A stretch of DNA of 64,000 bases from contig CAVYHJ010000002.1 in assembly GCA_963768165.1 (NCBI GenBank), positions 389,067 to 453,066 on the forward strand, read 5' to 3'. Source of the stretch: an uncultured bacterium (GTDB lineage Bacteria; UBP4; UBA4092). The notes below the pieces were generated by a model. The model saw only the letters and a list, made by a program, of their open reading frames with translations. It ran no database searches and was not told the DNA's origin. Shown in pieces: positions 6,982-64,000 of this stretch. A program made the translations under genes and the position numbers. Every line of letters begins with the position of its first letter. Within the stretch, counting starts at the first letter, position 1.

Positions 6982-9900
6982 TTACTCTGGCTTAATAATG
7001 GCTACTATATCTCGGAAGAACGTGGGGATAGGAGTGCTTTCCACATCCGTATAGGAATTCCATGTTAGATTAACAGTTGTAGACACACTAACTCCGGTGG
7101 TCGAATTATACCAAGTCAGTTGATAACTTCCCGGTGGAAAAGCGGATATCTGCATGTAGGTATTGGCAAGTGGGGGCGGAGTTTGATATAAAGAGCGGGA
7201 ATCCTGTATTAACCAAATCAATAAGTTTTGACTATCTCCTGAATAAATGGGAACAATACTCTCTGAAGAAGTACCTGAAAACGAAATCCGTCCCGTTGAT
7301 CCATTCTGATTCACCCATTGCGTAATTCCCGCCCAATTAAACTGATTAATAATAGTAGCACGCGCTAAATGGTCATTCATCATATTATCATCAAAGCCAT
7401 TGTATTCGTTTAAGTAGGGAGGTTCATTTACATAATAAGGTGGAAGTGTAGTATATTGGGTTAAATAAGTGACATTCCCAGGAAAGGTTGATGCAAATTT
7501 ATTATTAACATACATCCCATAATGATACCCTTCACCCGCGGCACCACTGGCAATATTCGCCCAACCCATAAAATGAAAATATTCATCATAGAGATTCTCG
7601 TTGATATGACGGTCTACCAGATTGACGGCACTCGCGGACAGTCCTGTTGCATTATCATAGGTGGTATCCCCCCAATACTGTGGACTTAATGTCCAAGGTC
7701 CTTCATAATCTCCCGGTCCCATGAAGGTACAGATATAAGGTTTGGAAGAGGTCTCCATACTAAAAGCCAATTTAATAGTTTGAAACATATCTATTCCCGC
7801 TTCAATACACGCCGAATCAATTAGATATTGAGGGGATGTCGCGTCATACCAATTGGAACCGGGACCAGCAGTTGTAGCCTGTATCCAGAGCGGAAAGCTG
7901 ATAGGCAATGTCGTCACGACACCATACGGAGCGGTCGTAACTGTCACATAGACCGGATGGGTCGCTACCACATCCAACAAGGGATGCTGGAAATAAATGG
8001 GTTTAGTATAAGCTGTAGAATTCCCGGTATTGACCGCTGATAGAGGAACCGCAATATCCAATCCTTGAGACTTTGCATACATGGGTCGTATTCTAGCTGT
8101 AGGATAATCAATATCCGATCCGATGGGTCCGGGATTGGAGGCTCCTGACGACACACTCACAATATGTCCATGTCCCCATTTTTGGAGTTCATAATTTTTG
8201 ATGAACCCGGCAATCTGGGTGACCCAGTTTTCTTTGATACTATCATTCACAGCAGATGTGGTTGAAATATCCCCGATATAATTAAGTTCCGGCATTGGAT
8301 CCCACAGAACGATTCCCGCCCGGTCTCCCCAGTGGTCAATATAATACTGCAAGGTGGTTTCTGCAGTAATGATGGCGGTCTGTTCACTCAGAACCTGTCC
8401 CGGTGAAGTCACCGAACCGTATAATATGTTGGAACCACTATACCAAAAATTATATTGTGACCGTGGATTGGCTGCCACCCAATTGGCAGAATCGGGTGCG
8501 ACTCCCGAAAGCGTAAAGATTCCCAACCAATAGGTCATTTGATATTTATCCAGTTCATTCAAATGTTGATCCATCCATATCGCCGTTGCATCGCTAAAAA
8601 TTGTATTTCCGGTAGAATCGTGCGTTTCTACGGTATACCACGTCGTAACATTATCAGGATAACCATAAGGACTTGGTGGATTTTCAAAAAATCCCCGTGC
8701 CATGCTGTTAAACCCATGTGCTTTCGCCCATGCCAAATAATTATCCTCTTGCGGTAATGAAAGATTATCTTGATATTCTATAATAGGGTACTTGGCGCTA
8801 AATCCCATCGGGAAGTAGGGAGTACCGTCTTCGTATTCAAAAAGCCTGCCATTCTGGGCTACTTCAATAAACCCCCGATCAAGGTAATGGTACCCAATAT
8901 TAACAGTTCCACTGTCTAACGTTTGATTGGTAGCGGTACTGCCATAAGCACGGACAGTGGTGTCTCCTGAATGAACCAGAGGACTGGTACCTAGATGATT
9001 ATATGAACTCTGTACCAACCCGTTACTGTCATAGTTCATGGCATACCAGGCATCTTCATATATTCCTGTCATGCCGGTGTTTACACGATAACTGCTGCCA
9101 TCCAAGGCCGCCCAATACCACACTTGGCCTTCGTACACCGAAACCTTGGGGAGACACACCTGGTTGGAATTACTGCCAAACAGCAGGGTAATCGAATCGG
9201 TTGAACAGATGGTCCACCCATTCGCACCAGCGCTCAGGGTGATTAAGATATTTCCCAGTCCGGAACCGGTGGATGTATACGACCAACCACCCCCATTCAA
9301 CGTTGTAGCATACCCCAGTTGCGTACTCCCGCTCAATCCGTTGGCATAGGAAGATATCGTGATCTTGACACCTCTTGGAGGTGTACTGGCAAACGAATAA
9401 GACATCCCTGACACGCCACTAATTTGCAGAGGGAACCGGCTGGCGTCCCCAGTCGTCGAGGCCAGGTAATATCCGTCAAAGGACCCGCTCCCGCTATTGG
9501 CAAATTGGGGATTAGCGGTAATGAGATTGCTATTGGTCGGGTCACCGCTATAGTCCAAGGTATTGTTGTATAGATTATTATTTGTAACAGTCCCTTCAAT
9601 ATATCCAGATGTTAAATATATTCCGGTAGAGAATCTAGAGACTATGTTATTTCGTATATCCACATTACTGGTAATATTTGTAGTCGCTACCCCATAAATT
9701 CCATACCAACCCGATCCATTCCCTACTAGCGTATTATTACGAAGGATAGCATTGTCATTGGAAGAGGAGATTGTCCATAGCAAAATCTGGTACTGGTTGT
9801 TATTTCCCGCGAGAAACAGATTATTCTCTGCTCGAACATAGGAATCCACAGCCGCAATCCCGTCCCGACAATCATAGAAAACATTATCGTTAATCCGATG

Positions 9901-12228
9901 ATAGAGAACGGTTCCTGAATCTAAATCAATCCCTGCGGCGGCATACCTGAAAATACAATTCTGAATGATACTATTGGGACCTAAATTTTGACCGATTTCA
10001 ATACCAATAAAGTAACTATACAAACCATCGGCTCCCAAAGGGTGGGTCATCATATCCCCGGTCGCATAAATGGTATTAAATTCAATCCGGTTATTGGCAT
10101 GACCGTGAGCAATAATATTGGCGTAATTCCAGCTAAATAATTGTGAGATATTCGCTGAGACACTACGCCAAAAAGAAACCACCACACCCGGTAAGATAGT
10201 CAAGGTCGCACTATCCACACCACTCGTTCCAATTGTTAAAGTAGAATATGTACCGGAATTACCCACCACGACATCTACGGGGTCATAGTGATACCCAATA
10301 TCCACAATTCCCGTATTGCGAGGAACTTCCGACCACGTGGTGCTGGCGGTGATGGTGTTGGGCGCTTGAACCGGCGCAACTGTGGTCTTGTTTTGTAATC
10401 CATAATATGCGGCTGTGGTATCCCCTGCGCTAGTAGCCCCACTGACCGAAGGATTCAGATAATATGAACCATTGGCTGAAGTTGCATAAGGATTCGTATT
10501 GATTGACCCTTCTCCAGTGTTTTGACCGATAGAACCATAATAATTGGAATAATCTTGATAAAATTTGTTATAGGAATGTGCGTTCCCAAATCCGTTTACC
10601 GCGCTCAATCCGTAAAAACAGTTGGTGATTAAATTATTACGGCAATCGACAAAGGCACCGTTATATCCGAGGATGCCATTACCCGTACCTGCGCCATCCA
10701 CTGTATTATTCAGTGCCACCACATAGGCCACTGTATCATTGGCTATCGCATAAATTCCTGTAGGGAAAGAAATATATCGGGAGCCTGAATAGATGAGATT
10801 ATTCATTACGGTAATCCGACTATTGGTTCCGTTGAGGGATAAATATATTCCATTGGTAGAACATTGTTGGATGATATTATTTTGGATAGGGGTATTGAGA
10901 TTCGTGTAAATATCCAATCCATCGGTGGCATAGGCGATCTTACAATATTGAATCTGGCTACTGGCTGAAGCCCCTGATTGCAGAGAAATGGCGGTCCCGT
11001 AATCTCCACCTGTCGCTGTGCTGAAAGTGGTACTCACCGAATCACCCATTGTGGTATCTTTCCAACTGGTGAAGAGGACGTAATCGAAAGTGGTTCCAAC
11101 AGAAAGAATTTTTGCACCGGAAGGGACCGTAATCGAAGCACCGGAAGTATATTTACAGACCGTCCCTCCTTCAATCACCAAGGTCCACGGAGCACTAAGG
11201 GTATAGGTTCCACTGAGATAATAGGTATTCCCTGATTTCCAGACTTGATTACCCGTTTGTGTGCCTGTTTTAATGTTGTAATCCAAAGTAACCGGAAAGG
11301 AAGCCGATACCAAAAAACTATAAGGAATTCCCTCGACCAAATATGTGTGACCATTTTGTTGGTAGAGAAATTTGTACATCGTGATGGATTGTTTTACAGG
11401 ACTACTGTCAAAGGCGGGACTTTGCGCAACGTAACAGAGAGCTTGACCAGTTGAGGCATCCGCAAAATAAAAATCTTTTCCTTCACCGGACAGAAAACCG
11501 GATTGCAGTGTTTGTCCGGTATAATCCTGAATAGAACAGGCAAAAATCGAGGTGTCTATTTCGGTAACACTCACCAAATAAGCGGTTCGGGGATCCATTT
11601 GATAATGGCTGGGAGAAGGTAATGCTTGAAGACTTCTTACTATCAAGTTTTGTTGAAAAGAACCTTTGCCATAACAAAAAGACAAATCTATTCCCGGAAA
11701 GATATTGGTATAGGTCAAAGTATTGCCTTGGAGAGTGGGAGGAACCGCATTAATCGCACCCAGAGGTTGAAGGGTATTATTACCTTTATCGTAAAAAGCC
11801 AAATACCGCAAGCCCAATTGCATGATTTTCCCATTCACCGTATAACCAATCGGCCATTGGGTATCTAATCCAGCGCCGAATTGGATTTGATAAGGACCTT
11901 GCAGAGCTTGATAGGTTCCATTTTCGGTGGATTGAATACTCTCGACCGATACCTGCCAATTGTTGGCCGTATCCTGGAAACATAACCCATCGGCTTTTTC
12001 TGTTACAAAACGAGTAACCGTTACCTGGGACATCGCCATCGTTGTAACATCAACATCATCCACGACTTTTTGTATTTGCCAGACACGGGTGTTGGCGTTT
12101 CTCCCAGAAACGATTTCTGTGGGACTTCCTGCGGGTGGCGTACTTCCAACTACGCTGGCGATGGAAAAAGTGCACAGCGTCAACAAACATAAAATAAAAA
12201 AGCACGTTCTCTTACTGGATGTAGTCAT
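6982..12228 (-). CDS. giant secreted protein (1748 aa) with signal peptide, right-handed parallel beta-helix repeats, a glycoside-hydrolase-like barrel and the shared ~125-aa C-terminal module
   Basis: Signal peptide MTTSSKRTCFFILCLLTLCTFSIASVVG; many PbH1-type repeats (NNLIYSGSRYISF…, NNLITNCFYGLSAV…, NNTLVGNGSGWYGIYG…); GH-like segment (NGRLFEYEDGTPYFPMGF…); C-terminal …NEYNGFDDNMMNDHLARATIINQFNWAGITQW…DIVAIIKPE. Confidence 0.75.
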   Translation of the reverse strand: MTTSSKRTCFFILCLLTLCTFSIASVVGSTPPAGSPTEIVSGRNANTRVWQIQKVVDDVDVTTMAMSQVTVTRFVTEKADGLCFQDTANNWQVSVESIQSTENGTYQALQGPYQIQFGAGLDTQWPIGYTVNGKIMQLGLRYLAFYDKGNNTLQPLGAINAVPPTLQGNTLTYTNIFPGIDLSFCYGKGSFQQNLIVRSLQALPSPSHYQMDPRTAYLVSVTEIDTSIFACSIQDYTGQTLQSGFLSGEGKDFYFADASTGQALCYVAQSPAFDSSPVKQSITMYKFLYQQNGHTYLVEGIPYSFLVSASFPVTLDYNIKTGTQTGNQVWKSGNTYYLSGTYTLSAPWTLVIEGGTVCKYTSGASITVPSGAKILSVGTTFDYVLFTSWKDTTMGDSVSTTFSTATGGDYGTAISLQSGASASSQIQYCKIAYATDGLDIYTNLNTPIQNNIIQQCSTNGIYLSLNGTNSRITVMNNLIYSGSRYISFPTGIYAIANDTVAYVVALNNTVDGAGTGNGILGYNGAFVDCRNNLITNCFYGLSAVNGFGNAHSYNKFYQDYSNYYGSIGQNTGEGSINTNPYATSANGSYYLNPSVSGATSAGDTTAAYYGLQNKTTVAPVQAPNTITASTTWSEVPRNTGIVDIGYHYDPVDVVVGNSGTYSTLTIGTSGVDSATLTILPGVVVSFWRSVSANISQLFSWNYANIIAHGHANNRIEFNTIYATGDMMTHPLGADGLYSYFIGIEIGQNLGPNSIIQNCIFRYAAAGIDLDSGTVLYHRINDNVFYDCRDGIAAVDSYVRAENNLFLAGNNNQYQILLWTISSSNDNAILRNNTLVGNGSGWYGIYGVATTNITSNVDIRNNIVSRFSTGIYLTSGYIEGTVTNNNLYNNTLDYSGDPTNSNLITANPQFANSGSGSFDGYYLASTTGDASRFPLQISGVSGMSYSFASTPPRGVKITISSYANGLSGSTQLGYATTLNGGGWSYTSTGSGLGNILITLSAGANGWTICSTDSITLLFGSNSNQVCLPKVSVYEGQVWYWAALDGSSYRVNTGMTGIYEDAWYAMNYDSNGLVQSSYNHLGTSPLVHSGDTTVRAYGSTATNQTLDSGTVNIGYHYLDRGFIEVAQNGRLFEYEDGTPYFPMGFSAKYPIIEYQDNLSLPQEDNYLAWAKAHGFNSMARGFFENPPSPYGYPDNVTTWYTVETHDSTGNTIFSDATAIWMDQHLNELDKYQMTYWLGIFTLSGVAPDSANWVAANPRSQYNFWYSGSNILYGSVTSPGQVLSEQTAIITAETTLQYYIDHWGDRAGIVLWDPMPELNYIGDISTTSAVNDSIKENWVTQIAGFIKNYELQKWGHGHIVSVSSGASNPGPIGSDIDYPTARIRPMYAKSQGLDIAVPLSAVNTGNSTAYTKPIYFQHPLLDVVATHPVYVTVTTAPYGVVTTLPISFPLWIQATTAGPGSNWYDATSPQYLIDSACIEAGIDMFQTIKLAFSMETSSKPYICTFMGPGDYEGPWTLSPQYWGDTTYDNATGLSASAVNLVDRHINENLYDEYFHFMGWANIASGAAGEGYHYGMYVNNKFASTFPGNVTYLTQYTTLPPYYVNEPPYLNEYNGFDDNMMNDHLARATIINQFNWAGITQWVNQNGSTGRISFSGTSSESIVPIYSGDSQNLLIWLIQDSRSLYQTPPPLANTYMQISAFPPGSYQLTWYNSTTGVSVSTTVNLTWNSYTDVESTPIPTFFRDIVAIIKPE

Positions 12229-47197: not shown

Positions 47198-48118
47198 TTA
47201 CTTCTGTGCACCTTTCTCTTTGAGTAATCGGGCAATTTCAGTGTAATTTTTAATTTCGGCATAATATAGTGGAGTATATTCGTTGTAAACTCTAATATTT
47301 ACATTTACTCCTTTATTCAATAAAAGTTTTACCACCTCTGTTTTTCCATATAAAGAAGCATAAAGAAGTGCAGTGCTTCCTGAATCATCAACGTTGTCAA
47401 CCTTTGCTCCATGATCTAATAAATATTGAACTGCTTCAGTATATCCATTGTATGCAGCTATTATAAGTGGAGTAAACCCTCTATCCAATGATTTATTATT
47501 AATATCAATAGGTTTATTTAGAATAAATTTAATTGTTTTCATATCCCCTTTCCCACAAGCACGACGCAATCCCCACTCATAAATAGGTACAGAATTTGTA
47601 AATACATAGAATATTACGACTAATACTGCAATCAAGTTATGAAGGCCATGTATGGATGAGATGACGCCAAAAGATTCTTTAAATGAATATCGGCGGCATA
47701 GTAAATAAACAGTTGCATAGAATATTCCTATAAAAAACATATCAATGCATTTTACGATTCCCCATTGATAATGTCCTATTGAAAAAATAAGGGCTGAAAA
47801 AAGTACAATATACTTGGATGAGAATTTGAAATATTTCATGATTTCAATCGGAATTACTTGCGCTAGAATAGTCTCTACAACAGGCCCTAATATACCCACA
47901 ATTAATATAGCTAAAAAGGGATGCATTAAAATTAAATAATCGTGATAAATAAAATTATTGTTTTCTTTAAATAATGTCGGTAAATCTTTTAAAAACAAAA
48001 TTATTCCAAATGGAAGTTCTGCTATTAAACTAATGATAACTATAGTAGGGATAAGAATTAATAAACGGGGTTTGTAATCACTCTTAAAAGATAGATTTTC
48101 TTTTATTGTATGAAACAT
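47198..48118 (-). CDS. CPBP-family (CAAX protease/Abi-like) membrane domain fused to C-terminal ankyrin repeats
   Basis: 306 aa; TM region with FSIGH (FxxxH) and HGLHN (HxxxN) CPBP motifs, EExxxR motif degenerate (VVETILAQ); three ANK repeats (GFTPLIIAAYNGYTEAVQYLLDHGAKVDNVDDSGSTALLYASLYGKTEVVKLLLNKGVNVN…). Confidence 0.55.
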   Translation of the reverse strand: MFHTIKENLSFKSDYKPRLLILIPTIVIISLIAELPFGIILFLKDLPTLFKENNNFIYHDYLILMHPFLAILIVGILGPVVETILAQVIPIEIMKYFKFSSKYIVLFSALIFSIGHYQWGIVKCIDMFFIGIFYATVYLLCRRYSFKESFGVISSIHGLHNLIAVLVVIFYVFTNSVPIYEWGLRRACGKGDMKTIKFILNKPIDINNKSLDRGFTPLIIAAYNGYTEAVQYLLDHGAKVDNVDDSGSTALLYASLYGKTEVVKLLLNKGVNVNIRVYNEYTPLYYAEIKNYTEIARLLKEKGAQK

Positions 48119-48272: not shown

Positions 48273-50432
48273 TTACTGTTTCCCTAACTTTTCTTTTGCT
48301 TCCGTATTAGCAGGGTCAAGTTGAAGAACTTTTTGCCAGGCGGTGAGGGATTCCTGTTCCTTTCCCAGGAGGGAAAGTATGCGGGCTAGATTCACCCATG
48401 AATTGGGATTATGCGAATTCCATTGGAGGGCATTTCGGAAAGCAGATTCAGCTTTTGAATAATTCTGTTGATTAACGTAAGCGAGTCCCAAATTGGTGTA
48501 CCCTTCCACGGATTTTGGGTTAATTCGAATGGCTTGAGAAAAATATTCAATAGCTTTGTCCATGTCTCCGGTCTTTGCGTAAGCCGTACCCAAATTGAGC
48601 CAACCGCTTTGAGAGAGGGGATTTAAATAGACATATCTTTCAAGTTCCTTTTTGGCATCCGGTATATGGTTTTGAAACAAATACCAGATTCCGCGGGTCA
48701 GATAAGGTTCTGAATAATTGGGTTCGTACTGACTTGACGAATAGGATTCGTTAAACGCCTGATCCCATATATTTCTTCGCGCGTAAAGCATGGAAAGGTT
48801 ATGTTTGGCAAGTGCAAAGGGTTGATGCGGATCTATGATGATGGGTTGATTTTGAGTTATGGGAATATCCAAGGATTTGGTTAAAATATTCCAGTACACG
48901 GATTGATCCGCCAAATCGTGTAATTCCCGGTCGGTCACAGGATGTGAGGTTAGTCGTCCAAAATAAACCGCAGGAAGAAAATAATCTTGTAAGTTGTCGG
49001 AAAGGATGACATCATATTCCGCATAGACCGGCTTGCCGGTTTCGAGAACCTGTTTCCAATCATTAGCGTTCCTCGGAATATGTTTTTCACGGTTAACACA
49101 GATAATTTTAATATCGGGACGAACCCCTTCCACCTGCTGGAGATAGAGAGTGATAAAATCGGTGAAGACATTTTGCACATAAATCGTCGAACCAAAGGGG
49201 ATATCCTGCAATATTTGATGACCGAATTGACGGGGCAGATCATATTTTAATACTGCGATGTCCTGATAATTCTGTTTAAACAAATGATAGGGAAAATTCA
49301 CAAAAACAAGGCACAGTACTATGTAAATTGACGGGAGAAAAGGGGATTTTTGCTTTTGCATGATTTCAACAACTTTACAAAATATCCAATAAATACCAAT
49401 TCCAATCCAGATGGAGAAAAGCGCATATCCCGGAAGAAAATAATTGGAAAACTCCTGTTCCATGCGTTGGCTGTGACCGTAGACCAGTCCCAGAAGAATG
49501 TTAGCGAGGATGATACTAGCGGAAAATGCAAAATATAAAAACCGTTTGCGAGACAAATAAATACATCCGATAACGCCAAGAATAATCCCCGGCCAGGTAA
49601 AGTTATTTAAAAATTCTCTGCCTGCGGCGACGGCTAAAATCTCCATGCCGTACCACGAATGGGAAAACATTTTTTCTTTGAAATCCTGATGAGTAATATA
49701 AATCTTGAACCGGTGCCAAGTTTGTGGGTCATCCCAATTGAGAACAGGATGGGTTGCCGCACGCAGAGGAATGTATAAATAGGTCATGCAGCCTAAGAAA
49801 ATCAAAGATATAAGGAAAAAGATTTTTTGAGTAGTTAATGTTTTTCTGAGGGAAGAAAATAAAAGGAGTATCCCTATTCCCGGAATCAATAAAATCATCT
49901 CTTCGTGGATTGCCAACCCCAAACCAAGAAGAAACGCAGAAAAATACAAATGCCTCTCATTATTTTCGGGAAATTGCTCGTAATATAAAAGGTGGTATCC
50001 GGCACCCAAAAGAAATAGGAGATTGGGAATATACACGCCTGCCATAACGGATTGAGACCAAAAAATCAGAGAAAAGGCAAGGGACAGGGAACCGATGAAA
50101 CCGGAGAGAAGTTGTGTAAAACAATAGTTTTCTTTTTTTGTGAAAAGAAGGAAAATCAAAAAAGTATAGACCAGAATGAGCGAACCGGACAGACACGAAA
50201 GAAAATTAATACGCAACGCGATGGTTCTTAGCGGAGCAAAAACCGAGAAAACAGAAGAAAGCAAAACGTAAAAGGGAAATCCCGTGGAGTGGGGAATTCC
50301 CAAACGGTAAGCTGCCGTGATAAATTCCCCACTATCCCACCAGTAAACCCCGGGGCACAGGGTATAGAGATAAACGGCCATGCTGGTCAAAAATAGTATT
50401 AAAAAAATGCCGGATACTTTATTCTTGAACAT
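48273..50432 (-). CDS. DUF2723-type (TMTC/TMEM260-like) polytopic membrane protein with C-terminal TPR repeats, putative GT-C glycosyltransferase
   Basis: 719 aa; N-terminal …CPGVYWWDSGEFITAAY… block, >10 TM, C-terminal TPR array. Confidence 0.6.
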   Translation of the reverse strand: MFKNKVSGIFLILFLTSMAVYLYTLCPGVYWWDSGEFITAAYRLGIPHSTGFPFYVLLSSVFSVFAPLRTIALRINFLSCLSGSLILVYTFLIFLLFTKKENYCFTQLLSGFIGSLSLAFSLIFWSQSVMAGVYIPNLLFLLGAGYHLLYYEQFPENNERHLYFSAFLLGLGLAIHEEMILLIPGIGILLLFSSLRKTLTTQKIFFLISLIFLGCMTYLYIPLRAATHPVLNWDDPQTWHRFKIYITHQDFKEKMFSHSWYGMEILAVAAGREFLNNFTWPGIILGVIGCIYLSRKRFLYFAFSASIILANILLGLVYGHSQRMEQEFSNYFLPGYALFSIWIGIGIYWIFCKVVEIMQKQKSPFLPSIYIVLCLVFVNFPYHLFKQNYQDIAVLKYDLPRQFGHQILQDIPFGSTIYVQNVFTDFITLYLQQVEGVRPDIKIICVNREKHIPRNANDWKQVLETGKPVYAEYDVILSDNLQDYFLPAVYFGRLTSHPVTDRELHDLADQSVYWNILTKSLDIPITQNQPIIIDPHQPFALAKHNLSMLYARRNIWDQAFNESYSSSQYEPNYSEPYLTRGIWYLFQNHIPDAKKELERYVYLNPLSQSGWLNLGTAYAKTGDMDKAIEYFSQAIRINPKSVEGYTNLGLAYVNQQNYSKAESAFRNALQWNSHNPNSWVNLARILSLLGKEQESLTAWQKVLQLDPANTEAKEKLGKQ

Positions 50433-55880: not shown

Positions 55881-57275
55881 TTGGGTAGTATATTACGTAT
55901 TTATCATTTAGGAACGGAAGACCTTTGGCTTGATGAGATTTTTACAATTGGGGATGCTCGTCAAAGTGTTTTTAAACTTTTACCACATGTTTTAGAAAAT
56001 GGAGCATTCCCATTTTTAGCTGTTCTAATACATTTCACTATGCGTCTATTTGGTGAATCAGCCATAACTGTCCGGTTGCCTTCTTGCATCTTTGGGATTC
56101 TCGGTATACCCATGATATTTCTCGTTGGGCGGAAAATGTTCAATGATATCGTAGGATTGTGTACAGCTTGTTTTTTAGCCATATCGCCTTACCATATATA
56201 TTATTCCCAGGAAGCACGGGCGTATACATTACAAATATTTCTTCTTTTGGCGGTGATTTTCTTTTTCTTGAAAGTCATAGAAGACAATTCTCCGATAAAT
56301 TGGCTTTTATTTTTAGGATGCGAATTATTGGCAACCTTCGCTCATTGGTATTCTACAATAATGATTTTAAGTATCAATCTTTATTTCGTCTTTTTGTGGA
56401 TTTCAAAAAAAGAGATTCGGTTGCGTACTTTAAGTTGGATTATAAGTCAAAGCATCTACTTAATTGTAACTATCCCCTGGCTTTTGACATTATCTTCATA
56501 TCATGTATGGGAAAAAGCCAAATGGATTCCTCCGCTGTCTCCCAAAGTAATTCCCGAAACATTTTATGATTTTAGTACAAGTATTACCGAAATGAATTTC
56601 CCAGCATGGATATTATGGTTTGGAAGTTTAATCTTTTGCATCTTATTCTTTTTGGCATTTGTTCGGCGATTTAGTGGGAATAAAAATGATTTGGGAGATA
56701 AATCTAATTTTTCTTTTAGTCTATCTTTGGCATTATTTATTTTTCCTATTGTGATTTTTTATTTGTATTCATTGCGTTTAAATAGTTATTTAGCATGGAG
56801 ATATCTGATTATTGCTTTACCCGGCTTTTATTTACTTTCAGCGCAAGGATTGACTTGGATTACATCCCGGTGGGTAAAAACACTGTTTCTGATATTAATA
56901 TGTTTTGTTTACGGATTTTGTTTGTATATACAATTTTTAAAACCTCATAAGATTAGTCTGCGGAAACCTGCGGAATATGTTCGCATCCATTACAAACTGG
57001 GAGATGCAATCATGATTATTCCTCCTTTCTGGGGAAAGTCTTTTTCTTATTATAATCCAGATGCGATTAATGTTTTATTACCGGATCCGCCTACCTATTA
57101 TGAAACCGCTTCTGCGGAATCAGCAAAGAAATATGAGAGGATTTGGCTGGTAGAAGTACCTGAATATATTGAACCGTTTCCTTTAACCCATTACTATCAA
57201 AATCATCAACTCCTATTAAATGTTCTGGAAAGAGGAGTCAGGCTATCTTTATATTCAAACCCGATTCACAACTAA
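55881..57275 (+). CDS. GT-C membrane glycosyltransferase, family 39/83-like (ArnT/PMT-type); TTG start
   Basis: …LGTEDLWLDEIFTIGDARQSVF…ISPYHIYYSQEARAYTLQIF…; no ATG/GTG upstream in frame before stop. Confidence 0.6.
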   Translation: MGSILRIYHLGTEDLWLDEIFTIGDARQSVFKLLPHVLENGAFPFLAVLIHFTMRLFGESAITVRLPSCIFGILGIPMIFLVGRKMFNDIVGLCTACFLAISPYHIYYSQEARAYTLQIFLLLAVIFFFLKVIEDNSPINWLLFLGCELLATFAHWYSTIMILSINLYFVFLWISKKEIRLRTLSWIISQSIYLIVTIPWLLTLSSYHVWEKAKWIPPLSPKVIPETFYDFSTSITEMNFPAWILWFGSLIFCILFFLAFVRRFSGNKNDLGDKSNFSFSLSLALFIFPIVIFYLYSLRLNSYLAWRYLIIALPGFYLLSAQGLTWITSRWVKTLFLILICFVYGFCLYIQFLKPHKISLRKPAEYVRIHYKLGDAIMIIPPFWGKSFSYYNPDAINVLLPDPPTYYETASAESAKKYERIWLVEVPEYIEPFPLTHYYQNHQLLLNVLERGVRLSLYSNPIHN

Positions 57276-59645: not shown

Positions 59646-61604
59646 TTACTTTTCAGGCGGATTAGATGATTGAGAGTTGGCGGTTGTATCTTGTACAGGA
59701 GTTGGTTTTTTCTTAAGGATTTTCAATTCGGTTTGCAATTTAAATGTCCCGCCGTCCTTGGTATCCAACTGAACTTCCAATGGCGTGAGTCCCACCGTCG
59801 CGGAATCGGAAATATTCAACTTATATTGAATTTCCTTTTCTTCGCCCGGTTTAATTGTCACGAATTTTTCCTGTTCCTCGCCAATAATATTTCGATTAAT
59901 AGAATCGGATATTTTGACGGCGAGATTCCCGATTAAATCCTTGGAAAAAATATTCCTCAATTCAATCCCCATATCCAACCCCTGACCCTGTTGAACCTGT
60001 GAAACCGGCAATTTTAAATTAATGATTTGGGACACGTCTTTTAATTCCGTAAAATCGCCGGAAATATAAACCGGACTATCCGTCAGAGTTACGGAAATAT
60101 CTTTATCGATCGGCAATAACGTAATAGTGTTACCGTAGAGATCCGTCACCTTCAAAGAATTGGCATCTGATTTCATTCCCACTGTGACACTCCCCGAAGT
60201 GCGCCAAGCGACCAGCAAACTTTGATTATCTTTCTTAAACGCATAGACCGAGCAATCGTTACCCAAATTAAGTGTACTGACGAAATCATACCCGTTTAAC
60301 TGGCGCGCCATGTTGGCTAGTGCGACGTAAGACGGTTTGGGTGAGAAATCGGATTCGAGGATACCTTCAAGGTGTTTCATGTCTTCTGTGGATGACCCGG
60401 AATCACGAAAGGTATTCCAAAATACTTTATCCGCCGTTGCGGAATAGCAGGAAAGAATATAACTCCGCACCAAGGCGGAGGCTTGAGCGGTATAGGAATC
60501 TTCGCCGGGATTATCGGATGAATGGGTAGGCCAGCCGATTCCCGTCAGCCAAATTTCTTTTCCTTTACCGTATTGCTCAAGGAGTTGAGAGACTTGTGCC
60601 GTATTTTCTGTAATTTGTTTTTGGTTCGGATGAAGGACAATCCCGTCTAATGAATCGCCTCCCCCGGCTTTTAAAAGTTGATTAATGAAAGTAGTATCTT
60701 CATCCCACCGTGCCGGTACGATAATATTACATTGTGGGTCGGCATCTTTTGCCGCGCGAAAAGCGGTTTTCAACAATCCTGCATATTGTTCGGGAGTGGT
60801 TGTGGAAGAGTCATCCGTAAAATTAATAGGAATTTCCCATGATTTAATTTTGTCTTTATAACGGGTGATGACTTGGGAGACAAATTCGGCAAATAGTTTA
60901 TTCCTGTCACCGGTGGAGGATTTGCTCCAATCCGGACAGTGGTTTAATACGCCCAAGGTGTCCAAATGGAAACGTTTAGCAGAGATAGCGGCATTGTCCG
61001 AATCTTTCCAGTCCCATTGGTCGGGTTGGGGTTGAATCTTTCGCCACTCGAATTCCTGGCGAATCCAATGAATGCCCGCGAGTTCCATTAATTGGCCGGA
61101 ATTTTCTGTCTGTGCGCTGGACAACTCCGCCAGATTTAAATCCACACCAAAACTGGAATCGAATCCTGTCGCGGGTGGTGCGGATATCCATGCCAGATTA
61201 ATTTTCTGGGTAAGGAGGGTATGCTCACCGTCGCGCAAAGTGATTTGCAATTGATACCAGCCGTTCAAGTTATGGTTCACGAAAATGGGATAAATAAAAC
61301 CGCCATTCTGCCAACGGGTCAGGTGTTCTTCTTTTTCGGAGACCAACTTGTTCTCGATGTTGAAAATCTGCCAATGAAAATATATATTTTTGACGGTATC
61401 GGGGATATGCGTGACAGTGATTTTGAATTGCGCCGTGTCACCCGCCAAAAAGATATTTCCTGGACGCGAAGATTTATAAGAAATCGCCAATTTTGGGTTA
61501 TCTACGGAACTTGTGGTGGGTACGAGAACTTGCCCATAAGTCACCGTCACCGCTGATAACAGCAATAGAAGGGTCACTATTTGTAGATGAAACCGTATTC
61601 TCAT
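59646..61604 (-). CDS. secreted TIM-barrel glycoside-hydrolase-like protein with N- and C-terminal beta-sandwich domains
   Basis: 652 aa; signal peptide; …ELAGIHWIRQEFEWRKIQPQPDQWDW… and …EIWLTGIGWP… resemble clan GH-A hydrolases; family not assignable by eye. Confidence 0.45.
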   Translation of the reverse strand: MRIRFHLQIVTLLLLLSAVTVTYGQVLVPTTSSVDNPKLAISYKSSRPGNIFLAGDTAQFKITVTHIPDTVKNIYFHWQIFNIENKLVSEKEEHLTRWQNGGFIYPIFVNHNLNGWYQLQITLRDGEHTLLTQKINLAWISAPPATGFDSSFGVDLNLAELSSAQTENSGQLMELAGIHWIRQEFEWRKIQPQPDQWDWKDSDNAAISAKRFHLDTLGVLNHCPDWSKSSTGDRNKLFAEFVSQVITRYKDKIKSWEIPINFTDDSSTTTPEQYAGLLKTAFRAAKDADPQCNIIVPARWDEDTTFINQLLKAGGGDSLDGIVLHPNQKQITENTAQVSQLLEQYGKGKEIWLTGIGWPTHSSDNPGEDSYTAQASALVRSYILSCYSATADKVFWNTFRDSGSSTEDMKHLEGILESDFSPKPSYVALANMARQLNGYDFVSTLNLGNDCSVYAFKKDNQSLLVAWRTSGSVTVGMKSDANSLKVTDLYGNTITLLPIDKDISVTLTDSPVYISGDFTELKDVSQIINLKLPVSQVQQGQGLDMGIELRNIFSKDLIGNLAVKISDSINRNIIGEEQEKFVTIKPGEEKEIQYKLNISDSATVGLTPLEVQLDTKDGGTFKLQTELKILKKKPTPVQDTTANSQSSNPPEK

Positions 61605-61785
61605 GAGGTCATTTTAGTATAGCGTGACGGACGGAAAAATTAAAGGGAGGGAAAGTAAATTCTACGCATCAAAACCCTTTAAATACCGAACCTATACTGG
61701 AGAGGGACTGGAATTGCTAATAGCAACTCCAGTCCTACTCCGCTTTAGATACGGTATTTATTGAGTTTTGAACGCTTGACGGTTG

Positions 61786-62271
61786 TTACCAGGGGAAGTT
61801 CCAAAACCAGTTACTGCGGGAGGAACGCCAGTTTATGGCAAGTTCTTTAATTCTTTCCTCATAACGAATGTCTCCTGCCAGACCTTCTCCGATTCCTGAC
61901 ACATCCGGGTTGACTTTGTGATATTGGGCAATTTTCTCGATTTTTCCGCCGTCTACCCAAATCCCCTTACACGGAGTGCATTTATCCAGAATAATATTGG
62001 AGTCGTAACAATAATTGTAGGAGGTCATAGTCTGATGGCATTTGGGACAGGGTTTGGGTGGTTCCTGGATTTTGATTTCACCAATAGCGGAAATTTTGTC
62101 CATTGAAATCGGGAGTTCCGGAATATCTTTTCGTTCAATAAGCATATCTTCAATATATTCCTTGAGTTCCCCTTGCTCGAACCAAATCCCCCCGCATTGG
62201 GTGCAAACCATAATAGGGACTTGATAGTACATTTTCTGGACTAAAGCATTATTACACACTGGACATAACAT
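61786..62271 (-). CDS. tandem zinc-ribbon protein (two CPxC…CxxC-G-I/V-W modules)
   Basis: 161 aa; MLCPVCNNAL…CTQCGGIWFEQGEL and CPKCHQTM…CTPCKGIWVDGGKI. Confidence 0.6.
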   Translation of the reverse strand: MLCPVCNNALVQKMYYQVPIMVCTQCGGIWFEQGELKEYIEDMLIERKDIPELPISMDKISAIGEIKIQEPPKPCPKCHQTMTSYNYCYDSNIILDKCTPCKGIWVDGGKIEKIAQYHKVNPDVSGIGEGLAGDIRYEERIKELAINWRSSRSNWFWNFPW

Positions 62272-62302
62272 AGTATTCTCTCCTCAGTTTAAGTGTCGCC
62301 CT

Positions 62303-62785
62303 TCATATCCACAAGTATCCTCCAGGACGCATGTTTAAGAATTTACCGACTCGTGCCATTTTTAATAGTAATTGAAGACTCCTATCGTCTTTGATAATTT
62401 CGTCGCCGATCACTTTATAATCCGAATGGTCTTTGACCTCCAGCACCAGTTGGTTGATTTTGGAACTATCCACCCATACCCCATGACAGTCCATACAGCG
62501 GTATAAATGGATATTGGCTTCCAAATCATAACTGTACCATTTCATGGGTTTATTGCATTGCGGACAAGGCTGGAGAATTTGCGGAACAATATTTTCGGTA
62601 TTGATTTTCCAGTGGGAGGAAGTTTCAGTACCGGGGACATAATCGGCATACTTGATATGCAATTGGATAAATGGTTCCAATTTATCCTGAGAGAGCCAGA
62701 CTCCCGAACAGTTGGGACATATATCCAAATCCAGATTTTCATAACCGCTCTTCTGAAGTTCTGCATTACACGCCGGACATTTCAT
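62303..62785 (-). CDS. tandem zinc-ribbon protein (paralog)
   Basis: 160 aa; MKCPACNAEL…CPNCSGVWLSQDKL and CPQCNKPM…CMDCHGVWVDSSKI. Confidence 0.6.
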   Translation of the reverse strand: MKCPACNAELQKSGYENLDLDICPNCSGVWLSQDKLEPFIQLHIKYADYVPGTETSSHWKINTENIVPQILQPCPQCNKPMKWYSYDLEANIHLYRCMDCHGVWVDSSKINQLVLEVKDHSDYKVIGDEIIKDDRSLQLLLKMARVGKFLNMRPGGYLWI

Positions 62786-62793
62786 AGGAATTG

Positions 62794-63918
62794 TTATACT
62801 CTCTTTCGCTTCATAATCCTAAAAGGTATCGCTATTATAACACCGCAGAGAAACCCGCCGATGTGTGCTCCATAGCCAATTTGCGCAATCAAATTTCCTG
62901 ATGCCAAAAGCAACCCGTACACCATCTGGAAAAAGAACCAGGCAAAGATATAAATGAATGCGGGAATGTCCACGGTATTAATCACGATTAAGGTCTTGAT
63001 TTTAGCGGTGGGATACAACACCAAAAACGCGCCCATGACCCCCGATATAGCGCCACTGGCGCCAATGGAAACGGTCTGCATATCGCCAGTCAACAATATG
63101 TGAAACCCACTTCCGGCGATTCCAAACAGCAGATAAAGAAAAAGATATTTGAGGTGTCCCATAGCGTCTTCCACATTGTCGCTGAATATCCAAAAGAATA
63201 ACATATTTCCCGACAAGTGCAGAATACTAACATGAAGGAAGAGAGAGGTAATGAACCGGTAATATTCTCCATTTTGCAGAACGGCGGACGGGAGAAAACC
63301 ATACTGATGAATTAGGGTATCCAACGTATCCCAATTTATTATTTCATAAATGAACGCACCAACATTCAGCAGAATAATCCCAATGGTCACGTAAGGAAAA
63401 GTCTTGGAACGAAAATCCAGACCTAGAGGGAGAATAGGTCCGGAGGGACTGGCTGCCGCACTATGGCTTAAAGTGTCACCCAGTTCCACAAGGTCTTTAA
63501 TAGTTTCCTTGGTTTTTTCCTCTCTGACCAAATCATTTCCGAGGGCGTTCATGGTGGGGTTGCCTTTGAAATAGACCGCGAATTGAGACAGGAGCGATTT
63601 TGGAGTCCAAAGTCCGTGACACTTAGGACATTTGTTGACGAGAATGTTGGAATCATAACCATAATTAATCAGTGTCATGAGACAATGGCAACGCGGGCAA
63701 GTTTTGGTGCCGTGAGGCAAATTTTCTTCACCGATAATCAGCTTGTGATATTCCAATTTTGCGGCGGGGAGGTCAGGGTGGTCTATAAAATATTGGCTGA
63801 TATAGTCCCTGAGTTGGTTTTTTTCAAACCAAATGCCAGCGCACTGAGGACATTCTTGTATACTGACCCCATGATAGTCCACATGCGAAAAAGGTGCATG
63901 ACATTCAGGGCATTCCAT
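62794..63918 (-). CDS. rhomboid-family intramembrane serine protease with N-terminal tandem zinc-ribbon domain
   Basis: 374 aa; N-terminus MECPECHAPF…CPQCAGIWFEKNQL + CPRCHCLM…CPKCHGLWTPKSL; TM core with GASGAISGVMGAF (GxSG) and GAHIGGFLCG (catalytic His). Confidence 0.7.
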   Translation of the reverse strand: MECPECHAPFSHVDYHGVSIQECPQCAGIWFEKNQLRDYISQYFIDHPDLPAAKLEYHKLIIGEENLPHGTKTCPRCHCLMTLINYGYDSNILVNKCPKCHGLWTPKSLLSQFAVYFKGNPTMNALGNDLVREEKTKETIKDLVELGDTLSHSAAASPSGPILPLGLDFRSKTFPYVTIGIILLNVGAFIYEIINWDTLDTLIHQYGFLPSAVLQNGEYYRFITSLFLHVSILHLSGNMLFFWIFSDNVEDAMGHLKYLFLYLLFGIAGSGFHILLTGDMQTVSIGASGAISGVMGAFLVLYPTAKIKTLIVINTVDIPAFIYIFAWFFFQMVYGLLLASGNLIAQIGYGAHIGGFLCGVIIAIPFRIMKRKRV

Positions 63919-64000
63919 AATGGCGATAATATATCACATATAGGTTCTTTATCAAACAATGTCTTATTCATTTTAAATTAGTTAAACATGGAAAAGATTT

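What the first reader, a model, noticed from the sequence alone, without database searches (positions are those of the whole stretch)
61786..63918. Three consecutive paralogous tandem-zinc-ribbon genes, the first fused to a rhomboid protease
All three proteins begin with two copies of a ~40-aa CPxC…(18-20 aa)…CxxC-G-[IV]-W-[FLV] ribbon of the TFIIB-like bacterial zinc-finger type. The 374-aa protein continues into a rhomboid core (GASGAISG, GAHIGG). The two downstream 160-aa proteins consist of the double ribbon only and have diverged to ~35-45% identity. A membrane protease that carries the same cytoplasmic domain as two adjacent soluble paralogs suggests competing or adaptor partners for a common ligand (DNA/RNA or protein), or protease substrates and regulators. 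I do not recognise this operon arrangement as a described system.
Basis: partly seen in the sequence, partly recalled or inferred. Interest (0 to 1): 0.6.

Follow-up and report, generated by a model that had tools for sequence, protein, structure and literature searches.

The report
Rhomboid protease with two free zinc-ribbon paralogs
An apparently active rhomboid membrane protease with a double zinc-ribbon domain on its cytoplasmic end sits in one operon with two soluble copies of that domain, but the three-gene arrangement is confined to this lineage and is not a conserved system.

Summary
Three co-directional minus-strand genes are present: A (62794-63918, 374 aa), B (62303-62785, 160 aa) and C (61786-62271, 161 aa). 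Each starts with two PF13453 zinc ribbons. A continues into a rhomboid core that keeps all its catalytic residues. Pairwise identity is 26-38%, not 35-45%.

Of about 27 related ribbon-rhomboid loci with usable flanks, none has a free double-ribbon neighbour. In the one close relative, B and C are intact and under purifying selection, while the rhomboid upstream is reduced to a relic of about 30 codons.

The double-ribbon (DR) module is widespread and mobile. It occurs fused to rhomboids, alone, as 4- and 6-ribbon soluble chains, and fused to another membrane domain. Paralogs often sit in tandem. No neighbouring gene family is conserved across these loci.

B and C have no transmembrane segment, so they are not rhomboid substrates. 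The modules are acidic, which argues against general nucleic-acid binding.

My best reading is a lineage-specific operon. The DR module would be a cytoplasmic protein-interaction or metal-dependent regulatory domain of the protease, comparable in role to the N-terminal domain of YqgP. B and C would be free copies that may share its partners. That function is inferred, not shown.

Interest is modest.

The parts
62794..63918 (-). Gene A: 374-aa double-zinc-ribbon (DR) module fused to a rhomboid intramembrane serine protease
   Evidence: ORF. PF13453 matched twice and PF01694 matched. AF2 model has mean pLDDT 90.5. Foldseek finds GlpG with TM-score 0.68-0.79 normalised to the target.
63463..63918 (-). 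DR module of A (aa 1-152): ribbon 1 plus helix (aa 1-46), linker, ribbon 2 plus helix (aa 72-118), long helix (aa 121-152). Predicted cytoplasmic.
   Evidence: All 8 Cys are invariant or nearly invariant in 38 family members.
62797..63402 (-). Rhomboid core of A (aa 173-374), six TM segments. Catalytic Ser288 at 63055-63057 and His352 at 62863-62865. TM2 carries H229/H234/N238.
62303..62785 (-). Gene B: 160-aa soluble DR protein, the most divergent paralog. Its ribbon-2 family motif is degenerate (YSYDLEANIHLYRC against the consensus NYAYDSNIILDKC).
   Evidence: No TM segment. Only 4 clusters in 5.8 billion proteins. dN/dS against the L008 orthologue is 0.28.
61786..62271 (-). Gene C: 161-aa soluble DR protein with a Trp-rich C-terminal tail
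   Evidence: No TM segment. AF2 model pLDDT 78.8. Standalone orthologues at 51-77% identity. dN/dS 0.16.
63928..63955 (-). Promoter-like site upstream of A (TTGATA-16-TATATT, TG extension)
   Evidence: This is a consensus match only; the number of sites found (8) is close to the shuffled expectation (5.6).
61705..61735 (-). 14-bp perfect hairpin downstream of C, the likely end of the A-B-C transcript. It has no T-tract.
   Evidence: Sequence. RNA fold gives -27.9 kcal/mol. The intrinsic-terminator scan did not call it.

Best explanation
This is a lineage-specific three-gene operon.

Gene A encodes a rhomboid intramembrane serine protease with its catalytic residues intact. Its cytoplasmic N-terminus carries a 150-residue double zinc-ribbon (DR) module laid out as ribbon-helix-linker-ribbon-helix-long helix. 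Genes B and C encode soluble cytoplasmic proteins that consist of the same module plus a short helical tail. Both belong to the rhomboid-type DR clade. C belongs to an older free-standing branch, and B is a fast-evolving offshoot found only in this lineage.

Shown: the anatomy, the paralogy, the topology, intact catalytic residues, purifying selection on B and C, and the absence of the arrangement elsewhere.

Inferred: the DR module is a Zn-dependent protein-interaction or regulatory domain, not a nucleic-acid binder. On the protease it would play the role that cytosolic N-terminal domains play in other bacterial rhomboids, namely substrate or partner recruitment, activation, or metal/redox sensing, as in B. 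subtilis YqgP. B and C, expressed with A, would bind the same partner(s), each other, or A's DR module, and so tune the protease.

Because B-C survive without the adjacent rhomboid in a relative, any such coupling is facultative.
For: Anatomy and domains.

Fold: the A model has pLDDT 90.5 and resembles GlpG. The ribbon resembles T. thermophilus ZifS (8YOZ).

Topology and solubility.

The DR-rhomboid family is real. About 45 clusters at 90% identity appear, and 57 of the top 150 representatives carry this architecture. The Cys residues and the Ser/His/H-H-N residues are conserved.

B and C are closer to rhomboid-borne DR modules (108-130 bits) than to the modules of multi-ribbon soluble proteins (72-86 bits).

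Operon features: 8- and 31-nt spacers, a GAGGAG ribosome-binding site before C, and a hairpin after C.

B and C are functional genes: dN/dS is 0.28 and 0.16 against the 81%-identical L008 locus.

The module tends to come in multiples, which fits self-association or multivalent binding:
- 48 four-ribbon and 4 six-ribbon soluble chains among 150 representatives.
- Tandem fused-fused pairs in L109 and L144.
- Tandem free-free pairs in L147, L163 and L169, and nearby pairs in L148 and L156.

Two DR-rhomboids with a dead catalytic dyad keep the DR module (L127, L143). This points to a role for the module that does not need proteolysis.

The modules are acidic.

Precedent: the YqgP N-terminal cytosolic domain binds Mn2+/Zn2+, activates cleavage and is needed for the adaptor function (PMC7231995).
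Against: No interaction or activity has been tested. AF-multimer was not available.

The trio is not conserved:
- None of about 27 fused loci has a free DR neighbour.
- C-like genes elsewhere are unlinked to rhomboids.
- In L008/L009, B-C are kept while the rhomboid is reduced to a TM6 relic. B and C therefore do not need A in cis.

B and C are not orthologous to module 1 and module 2 of the four-ribbon proteins, so the 'Rosetta-stone' argument works only at the level of the family.

No gene family is conserved next to DR genes across lineages, so genomic context gives no functional lead.

No literature on PF13453, ZifS or a ribbon-rhomboid fusion was found in the searchable library.
Confidence: 0.45

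Rival explanations
1. The adjacency is a by-product of duplication. B and C are ordinary members of the widespread free double-ribbon family and have their own cytoplasmic job. They sit beside the rhomboid only because tandem duplication of the 5' part of a DR-rhomboid gene (or of a free DR gene) happened there. There is no functional coupling to the protease.
For: The trio is unique to this lineage. B-C are retained under purifying selection beside a destroyed rhomboid in L008/L009. C-type orthologues stand alone among unrelated genes. Tandem paralogs are common in this family whatever the architecture. Free DR genes nest at several places among fused ones, for example L097 at 53% identity to the L091 module.
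Against: The three genes are tightly packed and co-oriented, with an 8-nt A-B spacer, so they are co-expressed here. B and C derive from the rhomboid-type DR clade and not from the multi-ribbon clade. The dN/dS signal integrates over the whole divergence and may mostly predate the loss of the rhomboid in L008.
Confidence: 0.35
2. The module is a zinc or redox sensor. The Cys4 ribbons would be labile metal or thiol switches that couple cytoplasmic zinc or oxidative status to protease activity, as the YqgP N-terminal domain senses Mn2+/Zn2+. B and C would act as zinc-buffering or co-sensing copies.
For: Each protein has eight conserved Cys in two Cys4 sites. Proteins with 4 to 6 ribbons exist. 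YqgP provides a precedent (PMC7231995). One C-type orthologue (L007) lies among Redoxin/AhpC, MsrA, MsrB and cytochrome bd genes.
Against: The redox context appears in a single locus. Other loci show housekeeping neighbours. Cys4 zinc ribbons are usually structural sites. No metal-homeostasis genes are nearby in the window.
Confidence: 0.12
3. The module binds nucleic acid or acts as a transcription factor. The ribbons would bind DNA/RNA, as the Pfam name and the JGI label 'Zn-finger nucleic acid-binding protein' suggest. A would then be a membrane-tethered regulator, and B and C free ones.
For: The Pfam name of PF13453 and the JGI annotations. There are weak sub-threshold hits to TFIIB, TFS and Dof ribbons, and weak Foldseek hits to two-ribbon RNA-polymerase subunits.
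Against: PF08271 (TFIIB zinc-binding) scores 18.8 bits against a cut-off of 29, and TFS scores 16.6 against 64.75. The Foldseek matches to Rpb9-like subunits have rmsd 18-30 Å. The modules are acidic: pI 5.5-5.9 here, and medians of 5.2-6.8 across 286 modules. No HTH or other DNA-binding domain is present. No regulated target gene is conserved nearby.
Confidence: 0.05
4. B and C are substrates of the rhomboid.
For: Only the co-operonic position.
Against: Rhomboids cleave within or next to transmembrane helices. B and C have no hydrophobic segment: the highest 19-residue Kyte-Doolittle means are 0.40 and 0.72, against at least 1.6 for A's TM segments.
Confidence: 0.03

Closest known systems
Bacillus subtilis rhomboid YqgP (GluP)
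   Same: A bacterial rhomboid with a globular cytosolic N-terminal domain ahead of the 6-TM core. In YqgP that domain binds Mn2+/Zn2+, activates cleavage of MgtE and is needed for the FtsH-adaptor role (PMC7231995). This is the functional analogy proposed here.
   Different: [quoted passage not shown] YqgP also has a C-terminal TPR domain. No free paralogs of its N-terminal domain are known to me. Homology between the two N-terminal domains was not tested here.
E. coli / H. influenzae GlpG (rhomboid, PDB 2IC8, 2NR9 and others)
   Same: The same 6-TM rhomboid fold (TM-score 0.68-0.79 normalised to the target), the same Ser-His dyad and the same TM2 H/H/N residues.
   Different: Not a GlpG orthologue: TIGR04239 scores 46 bits against a cut-off of 250. 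GlpG's cytoplasmic domain is a different, non-zinc fold (my recollection).
ZifS (TTHA0897) of Thermus thermophilus, PDB 8YOZ
   Same: The only solved PF13453-type protein found. One ribbon plus the following helix aligns with ribbon 1 of C (E 1.2e-5; Foldseek rmsd 1.7-3.6 Å over 42-51 alignment columns).
   Different: ZifS is an 82-aa protein with a single ribbon. No paper on its function could be found. The window proteins carry two ribbons in a fixed 150-residue module with an extra long helix.
Soluble 4- and 6-ribbon PF13453 proteins (e.g. P0135, P0140, P0134)
   Same: Built from the same DR module repeated two or three times in one chain. They show that the module works in multiples.
   Different: Their modules are more distant from B and C (72-86 bits) than rhomboid-borne modules are (108-130 bits). 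B and C do not map onto module 1 and module 2. These proteins are uncharacterised.
Haloferax volcanii RhoII
   Same: A prokaryotic rhomboid that, as I recall from Parente et al. 2014, carries an N-terminal zinc finger (not verified here). It is linked to envelope glycosylation (PMC9263693). The window trio also lies among envelope-glycan genes.
   Different: As I recall, that zinc finger is of the AN1 type and unrelated to PF13453. It is archaeal. The glycan-gene neighbourhood here may be coincidence.

Membership tests
Rhomboid intramembrane serine proteases (Pfam PF01694, MEROPS S54) | Profile match above the curated threshold | tested here: met
   114.7 bits against a cut-off of 22.6, over residues 217-365.
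Rhomboid intramembrane serine proteases (Pfam PF01694, MEROPS S54) | Catalytic Ser in GxSG (TM4) and catalytic His (TM6), plus the TM2 H..H..N residues | tested here: met
   Ser288 in GASGAISG, His352 in AHIGGF, and H229/H234/N238. These are invariant in 38 family members.
Rhomboid intramembrane serine proteases (Pfam PF01694, MEROPS S54) | Six-TM fold like GlpG, N- and C-termini cytoplasmic | tested here: met
   AF2 pLDDT 90.5. Foldseek finds GlpG at E 4e-5 with TM-score 0.68-0.79 normalised to the target. Hydropathy and the positive-inside rule agree.
Rhomboid intramembrane serine proteases (Pfam PF01694, MEROPS S54) | Proteolytic activity on a TM substrate | not testable with these tools
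   Needs a cleavage assay.
GlpG equivalog (TIGR04239 / NF008155) and rhombosortase (TIGR03902) | Score at or above the NCBIfam equivalog cut-off | tested here: not met
   46.3 against 250, 35.9 against 335, and 44.2 against 84.
PF13453 Zn_ribbon_TFIIB (bacterial 'transcription factor zinc-finger') | Profile match above threshold, two copies per protein | tested here: met
   62.6, 69.2 and 78.5 bits against a cut-off of 22, with two stretches in each protein.
PF13453 Zn_ribbon_TFIIB (bacterial 'transcription factor zinc-finger') | Four Cys ligands per ribbon (CxxC...CxxC) | tested here: met
   The Cys are invariant or nearly invariant in the alignments.
PF13453 Zn_ribbon_TFIIB (bacterial 'transcription factor zinc-finger') | Zinc binding | not testable with these tools
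   Needs metal analysis.
True TFIIB / TFS-type transcription factors | TFIIB zinc-binding profile (PF08271) or TFS equivalog above cut-off, plus the associated core domains | tested here: not met
   PF08271 scores 18.8 against 29 (B only). TIGR01384 scores 16.6 against 64.75 (C only). No cyclin-like or TFIIS domain is present.
A conserved 'DR-rhomboid plus free DR' gene system | Co-occurrence of free DR genes next to DR-rhomboids in other genomes | tested here: not met
   None of about 27 fused loci with usable flanks shows it. Among 80 generic rhomboid loci, none has a double-ribbon ORF beside the rhomboid; the only double-ribbon hit there is a single ribbon within the rhomboid ORF of L011. 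The close relative L008/L009 has B-C without the rhomboid.
Known anti-phage defence systems (PADLOC-DB) | Any component model hit | tested here: not met
   No hits for A, B or C at E<=0.01.

The most novel reading that the evidence does not exclude
Free copies of a rhomboid's own cytoplasmic domain act as trans-acting regulators of intramembrane proteolysis. B and/or C would heterodimerise with A's DR module, or compete for its partner, and so switch the protease or its adaptor function on or off. This would be a bacterial 'domain-decoy' control of a rhomboid. The wider DR family (fused, free, multi-ribbon, and pseudoprotease-linked) would then be a general zinc-dependent adaptor module for membrane proteostasis.
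Probability: 0.15. Interest if true: 0.6.

Novelty: new variant of a known kind. Interest (0 to 1): 0.33.

Why it matters
Regulation and substrate choice of bacterial rhomboids are largely unknown. YqgP is one of the few cases where a cytosolic domain has been shown to control cleavage.

The double-zinc-ribbon rhomboid clade is sizeable: about 45 clusters at 90% identity, and 57 of the top 150 representatives. I found no paper on it in the library I could search, and a 2025 review of the superfamily does not mention zinc at all.

The window offers a natural experiment, with the protease co-expressed with two free copies of its own regulatory module. That makes a decoy or adaptor hypothesis cheap to test. 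The catalytically dead DR-rhomboids that keep the module hint at a role for it that does not need proteolysis.

Because the arrangement is not conserved, it is a lead for studying the module. It is not evidence of a new system.

Tried and rejected
1. The genome-contig scan with the full-length family alignment chose generic rhomboid motifs. It returned 80 ordinary rhomboid loci and did not find the window's own genome.

2. Literature searches for PF13453, zf-TFIIB, 8YOZ, TTHA0897/ZifS, and 'rhomboid + zinc ribbon / Zn-ribbon' found nothing relevant. Koonin et al. 2003 could not be opened.

3. Rosetta-stone test: I asked whether B and C correspond to module 1 and module 2 of the four-ribbon proteins. 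They show no preference, so B-C is not a split four-ribbon gene.

4. Conserved-neighbour search by all-against-all BLAST of flanking ORFs found only clade-level synteny with housekeeping genes (GyrA, HolA, LigA, an aaRS, PrmC), plus LemA next to one free-DR clade.

5. Rfam found no RNA family in the window. PADLOC found nothing.

7. The organism could not be named. The cluster look-up gave no names. The nearest named homologues of A are Planctomycetota MAGs at about 35% identity.

8. The plus-strand ORFs that overlap the genes (e.g. 62507-62875, 63583-63981) were set aside as antisense artefacts. All homology, profile and dN/dS evidence lies on the minus strand.
Full report
**1. What is there**

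Three co-directional ORFs lie on the minus strand at exactly the stated coordinates. A is 62794-63918 (374 aa), B is 62303-62785 (160 aa) and C is 61786-62271 (161 aa).

- The spacers are 8 nt (A-B) and 31 nt (B-C). A GAGGAG ribosome-binding site precedes C.
- A promoter-like site lies just upstream of A at 63955-63928.
- A perfect 14-bp hairpin of -27.9 kcal/mol follows C at 61705-61735. It has no T-tract.
- The next gene downstream is a secreted GH10-like protein. It lies 181 nt away on the same strand.
- In a longer contig of the same genome, the gene upstream of A is a divergently transcribed amidohydrolase, followed by a dTDP-sugar/glycosyltransferase cluster.

The unit is therefore A-B-C.

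**2. Domains**

Each protein matches PF13453 (Zn_ribbon_TFIIB) twice, far above threshold. A also matches PF01694 (Rhomboid) at 114.7 bits. Every ribbon has its four Cys.

A is not a GlpG or rhombosortase equivalog. True TFIIB and TFS profiles stay below their cut-offs. A single-ribbon HMM and a regex find six ribbons in the whole 64-kb window, all within the trio.

Pairwise BLASTP identities are A-B 26%, A-C 38% and B-C 30%.

**3. Structure and topology**

The AF2 model of A has mean pLDDT 90.5.

| Element | Residues |
|---|---|
| Ribbon 1 strands | 11-31 |
| Helix | 35-46 |
| Linker | 47-72 |
| Ribbon 2 strands | 82-106 |
| Helix | 107-118 |
| Long helix | 121-152 |
| Short conserved strand | 162-167 |
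| Rhomboid core | about 173 onwards |

- The rhomboid core superposes on GlpG with TM-score 0.68-0.79 normalised to the target.
- The only solved relative of the ribbon is ZifS (TTHA0897, PDB 8YOZ), a single-ribbon 82-aa protein of T. thermophilus. I could find no paper on it.
- The model of C has pLDDT 78.8 and shows the same module. Its C-terminal helix has low confidence.
- A has six hydrophobic segments, a C-terminal tail with five K/R, and an acidic L1 loop. Both termini, including the ribbons, should therefore be cytoplasmic.
- B and C have no hydrophobic segment at all. They are soluble proteins and cannot be classical rhomboid substrates.
- Ser288, His352 and H229/H234/N238 are all present, so A is predicted to be an active protease.

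**4. The family**

The ribbon-rhomboid fusion is a real clade.

- About 45 clusters at 90% identity appear among the best hits to A. They come mostly from unnamed or Planctomycetota MAGs. The best non-self hit has only 41% identity.
- All eight Cys and the catalytic residues are conserved in 38 members.
- An exhaustive profile search with the 150-residue module found 17,612 representatives at E<=1e-3, 5,328 at E<=1e-10 and 191 at E<=1e-30.

Architectures of the best 150 representatives:

| Architecture | Count |
|---|---|
| DR + rhomboid | 57 |
| Soluble, four ribbons | 48 |
| Soluble, two ribbons | 22 |
| Soluble, six ribbons | 4 |
| DR + unrelated, unannotated 1-4 TM domain | 18 |
| Soluble, three ribbons | 1 |

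The DR module is thus mobile. It occurs on its own, in arrays, and at the N-terminus of at least two kinds of membrane domain.

**5. Is the trio conserved? No.**

- A metagenome scan seeded on the module motif NY[ACG]Y[DN]SN[IV][IFL] returned 80 loci.
- About 45 of these carry a DR-rhomboid. About 25 of those have at least 600 nt of flank. None has a free DR gene beside it.
- The same holds for the loci of P0006, P0002 and P0005, which include the closest homologues of A.
- Among 80 generic rhomboid loci, none has a double-ribbon ORF beside the rhomboid. The only double-ribbon hit there lies within the rhomboid ORF of L011.
- C-type free proteins at 51-54% identity stand alone among unrelated genes.
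- B-type proteins exist in only four clusters, all close relatives.

The only close relative recovered is L008/L009, at 81% nucleotide identity over B-C.

- It has B and C in the same order.
- The rhomboid upstream of them is gone. Only its last 30 or so codons remain. They match TM6 of the family profile at 18.3 bits and end just before B.
- An unrelated 375-aa ORF precedes the relic.
- Independently assembled contigs from two sequencing runs show the same junction.
- B and C are under purifying selection between the two lineages, with dN/dS of 0.28 and 0.16.

**6. Origin of B and C**

- In BLAST and a crude NJ tree, both B and C sit within the rhomboid-type DR clade. Their best non-orthologous hits are DR modules of fused rhomboids at 108-130 bits. 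Modules of multi-ribbon proteins score only 72-86 bits.
- C belongs to an older free-standing branch together with L007, L010 and P0127.
- B is a fast-evolving lineage-specific offshoot. The family's signature motifs in ribbon 2 are degenerate in B.
- Neither B nor C is a recent copy of A itself.
- Free DR genes nest at several points among fused ones. Some of those may be truncated gene calls.
- B and C do not correspond to modules 1 and 2 of the four-ribbon proteins.

**7. Clues to function**

- The module likes company. There are multi-module chains, tandem fused-fused pairs (L109, L144), and tandem or nearby free-free pairs conserved across related loci (L147/L148/L156 and L163/L169).
- Two DR-rhomboids with a dead catalytic dyad still keep the module: L127 (Ser to Cys, His to Ser) and L143 (Ser to Gly). 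This suggests a role for the module that does not depend on proteolysis.
- The modules are acidic, which argues against general nucleic-acid binding.
- No neighbouring gene family is conserved across lineages. Neighbours are housekeeping genes, except LemA next to one free-DR clade.
- There are no defence-system hits and no Rfam hits in the window.
- In B. subtilis YqgP, the cytosolic N-terminal domain binds Mn2+/Zn2+, activates cleavage of MgtE and is required for the FtsH-adaptor function (PMC7231995).
- A 2025 review of the rhomboid superfamily lists soluble domains as accessory functional units and never mentions zinc (PMC12615303).

**8. Explanation**

Shown:
- An operon encoding an apparently active rhomboid with a cytoplasmic double zinc-ribbon module, plus two soluble paralogs of that module.
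- The arrangement is confined to this lineage.
- B and C are functional genes that can persist without the adjacent rhomboid.

Inferred (confidence about 0.45 for the whole statement):
- The module is a Zn-dependent protein-interaction or regulatory domain.
- B and C share its partners or bind it, and so tune the protease.

Rivals:
- Adjacency as a by-product of duplication, with no coupling (0.35).
- A zinc or redox sensor (0.12).
- Nucleic-acid binding (0.05).
- B and C as substrates (0.03).

**9. Novelty and verdict**

- The fusion architecture is already recognised by annotation pipelines. JGI labels it 'membrane associated rhomboid family serine protease/Zn-finger nucleic acid-binding protein'. 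It appears uncharacterised.
- The trio is a lineage-specific variant and not a new system.
- It is worth a modest follow-up as an entry point to an unstudied rhomboid accessory domain.
- Interest 0.33; new variant of a known kind.

Noticed in passing
L127:7962-9065 and L143:2280-3443: Two double-ribbon rhomboids have lost the catalytic dyad but keep the zinc-ribbon module: L127 has Ser to Cys and His to Ser, and L143 has Ser to Gly with changed TM2 His residues. These are pseudoproteases. Both lie next to LigA, in the same sub-clade as the active L124/L128.
   Followed up: partly
L008:1207-1305 (and L009): A relic of about 30 codons from the 3' end of a rhomboid gene (AHIGGFFSGMILAWIFVK...) lies directly upstream of the B orthologue, and an unrelated 375-aa ORF without Pfam hits precedes it. 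The rhomboid was deleted while B-C were kept.
   Followed up: yes
L109:6714-9140 and L144:6409-8701: Tandem duplicates of complete double-ribbon rhomboid genes. Both copies keep the catalytic residues.
   Followed up: partly
L145:2647-3243; also L148, L151, L156, L134: A LemA-family gene (single-pass membrane protein) lies 20-230 nt downstream of a free double-ribbon gene in one clade, and near a fused one in L134. This was the only recurrent non-housekeeping neighbour found.
   Followed up: partly
P0160, P0166, P0198, P0224 and others (about 240 aa): A family with the double-ribbon module fused to a different small membrane domain of 2-4 TM segments. That domain has no Pfam match.
   Followed up: partly
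window 47198-48118 (-): A 306-aa protein combines an Rce1-like CAAX intramembrane protease domain (PF02517) with ankyrin repeats. It is a second membrane protease in this window that carries a soluble interaction domain.
   Followed up: no
window 48273-50432 (-), 55881-57275 (+), 59646-61604 (-); L001:1-7928: The trio lies among envelope-glycan genes: PMT_2/TMEM260-like glycosyltransferases (one with TPR repeats), a secreted GH10-like protein, and upstream a dTDP-sugar/GT2/GT4 cluster. Rhomboids have been linked to glycosylation in Haloferax and in humans (PMC9263693). This may be coincidence.
   Followed up: no
L007:8001-8465 and flanks: The C-type free double-ribbon gene (54% identity) lies among redox genes: Redoxin/AhpC directly downstream, MsrB and MsrA, cytochrome bd oxidase and an ECF-type sigma factor.
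   Followed up: no
window 63418-63435 (-), aa 162-167 of A: A conserved motif between the ribbon module and TM1 (family consensus PxIxLPLxDD, with Pro164 invariant) is predicted to be a short beta-strand. Its role is unknown.
   Followed up: no
window 6982-12228 (-): A 1748-aa protein with right-handed beta-helix / NosD-like repeats.
   Followed up: no
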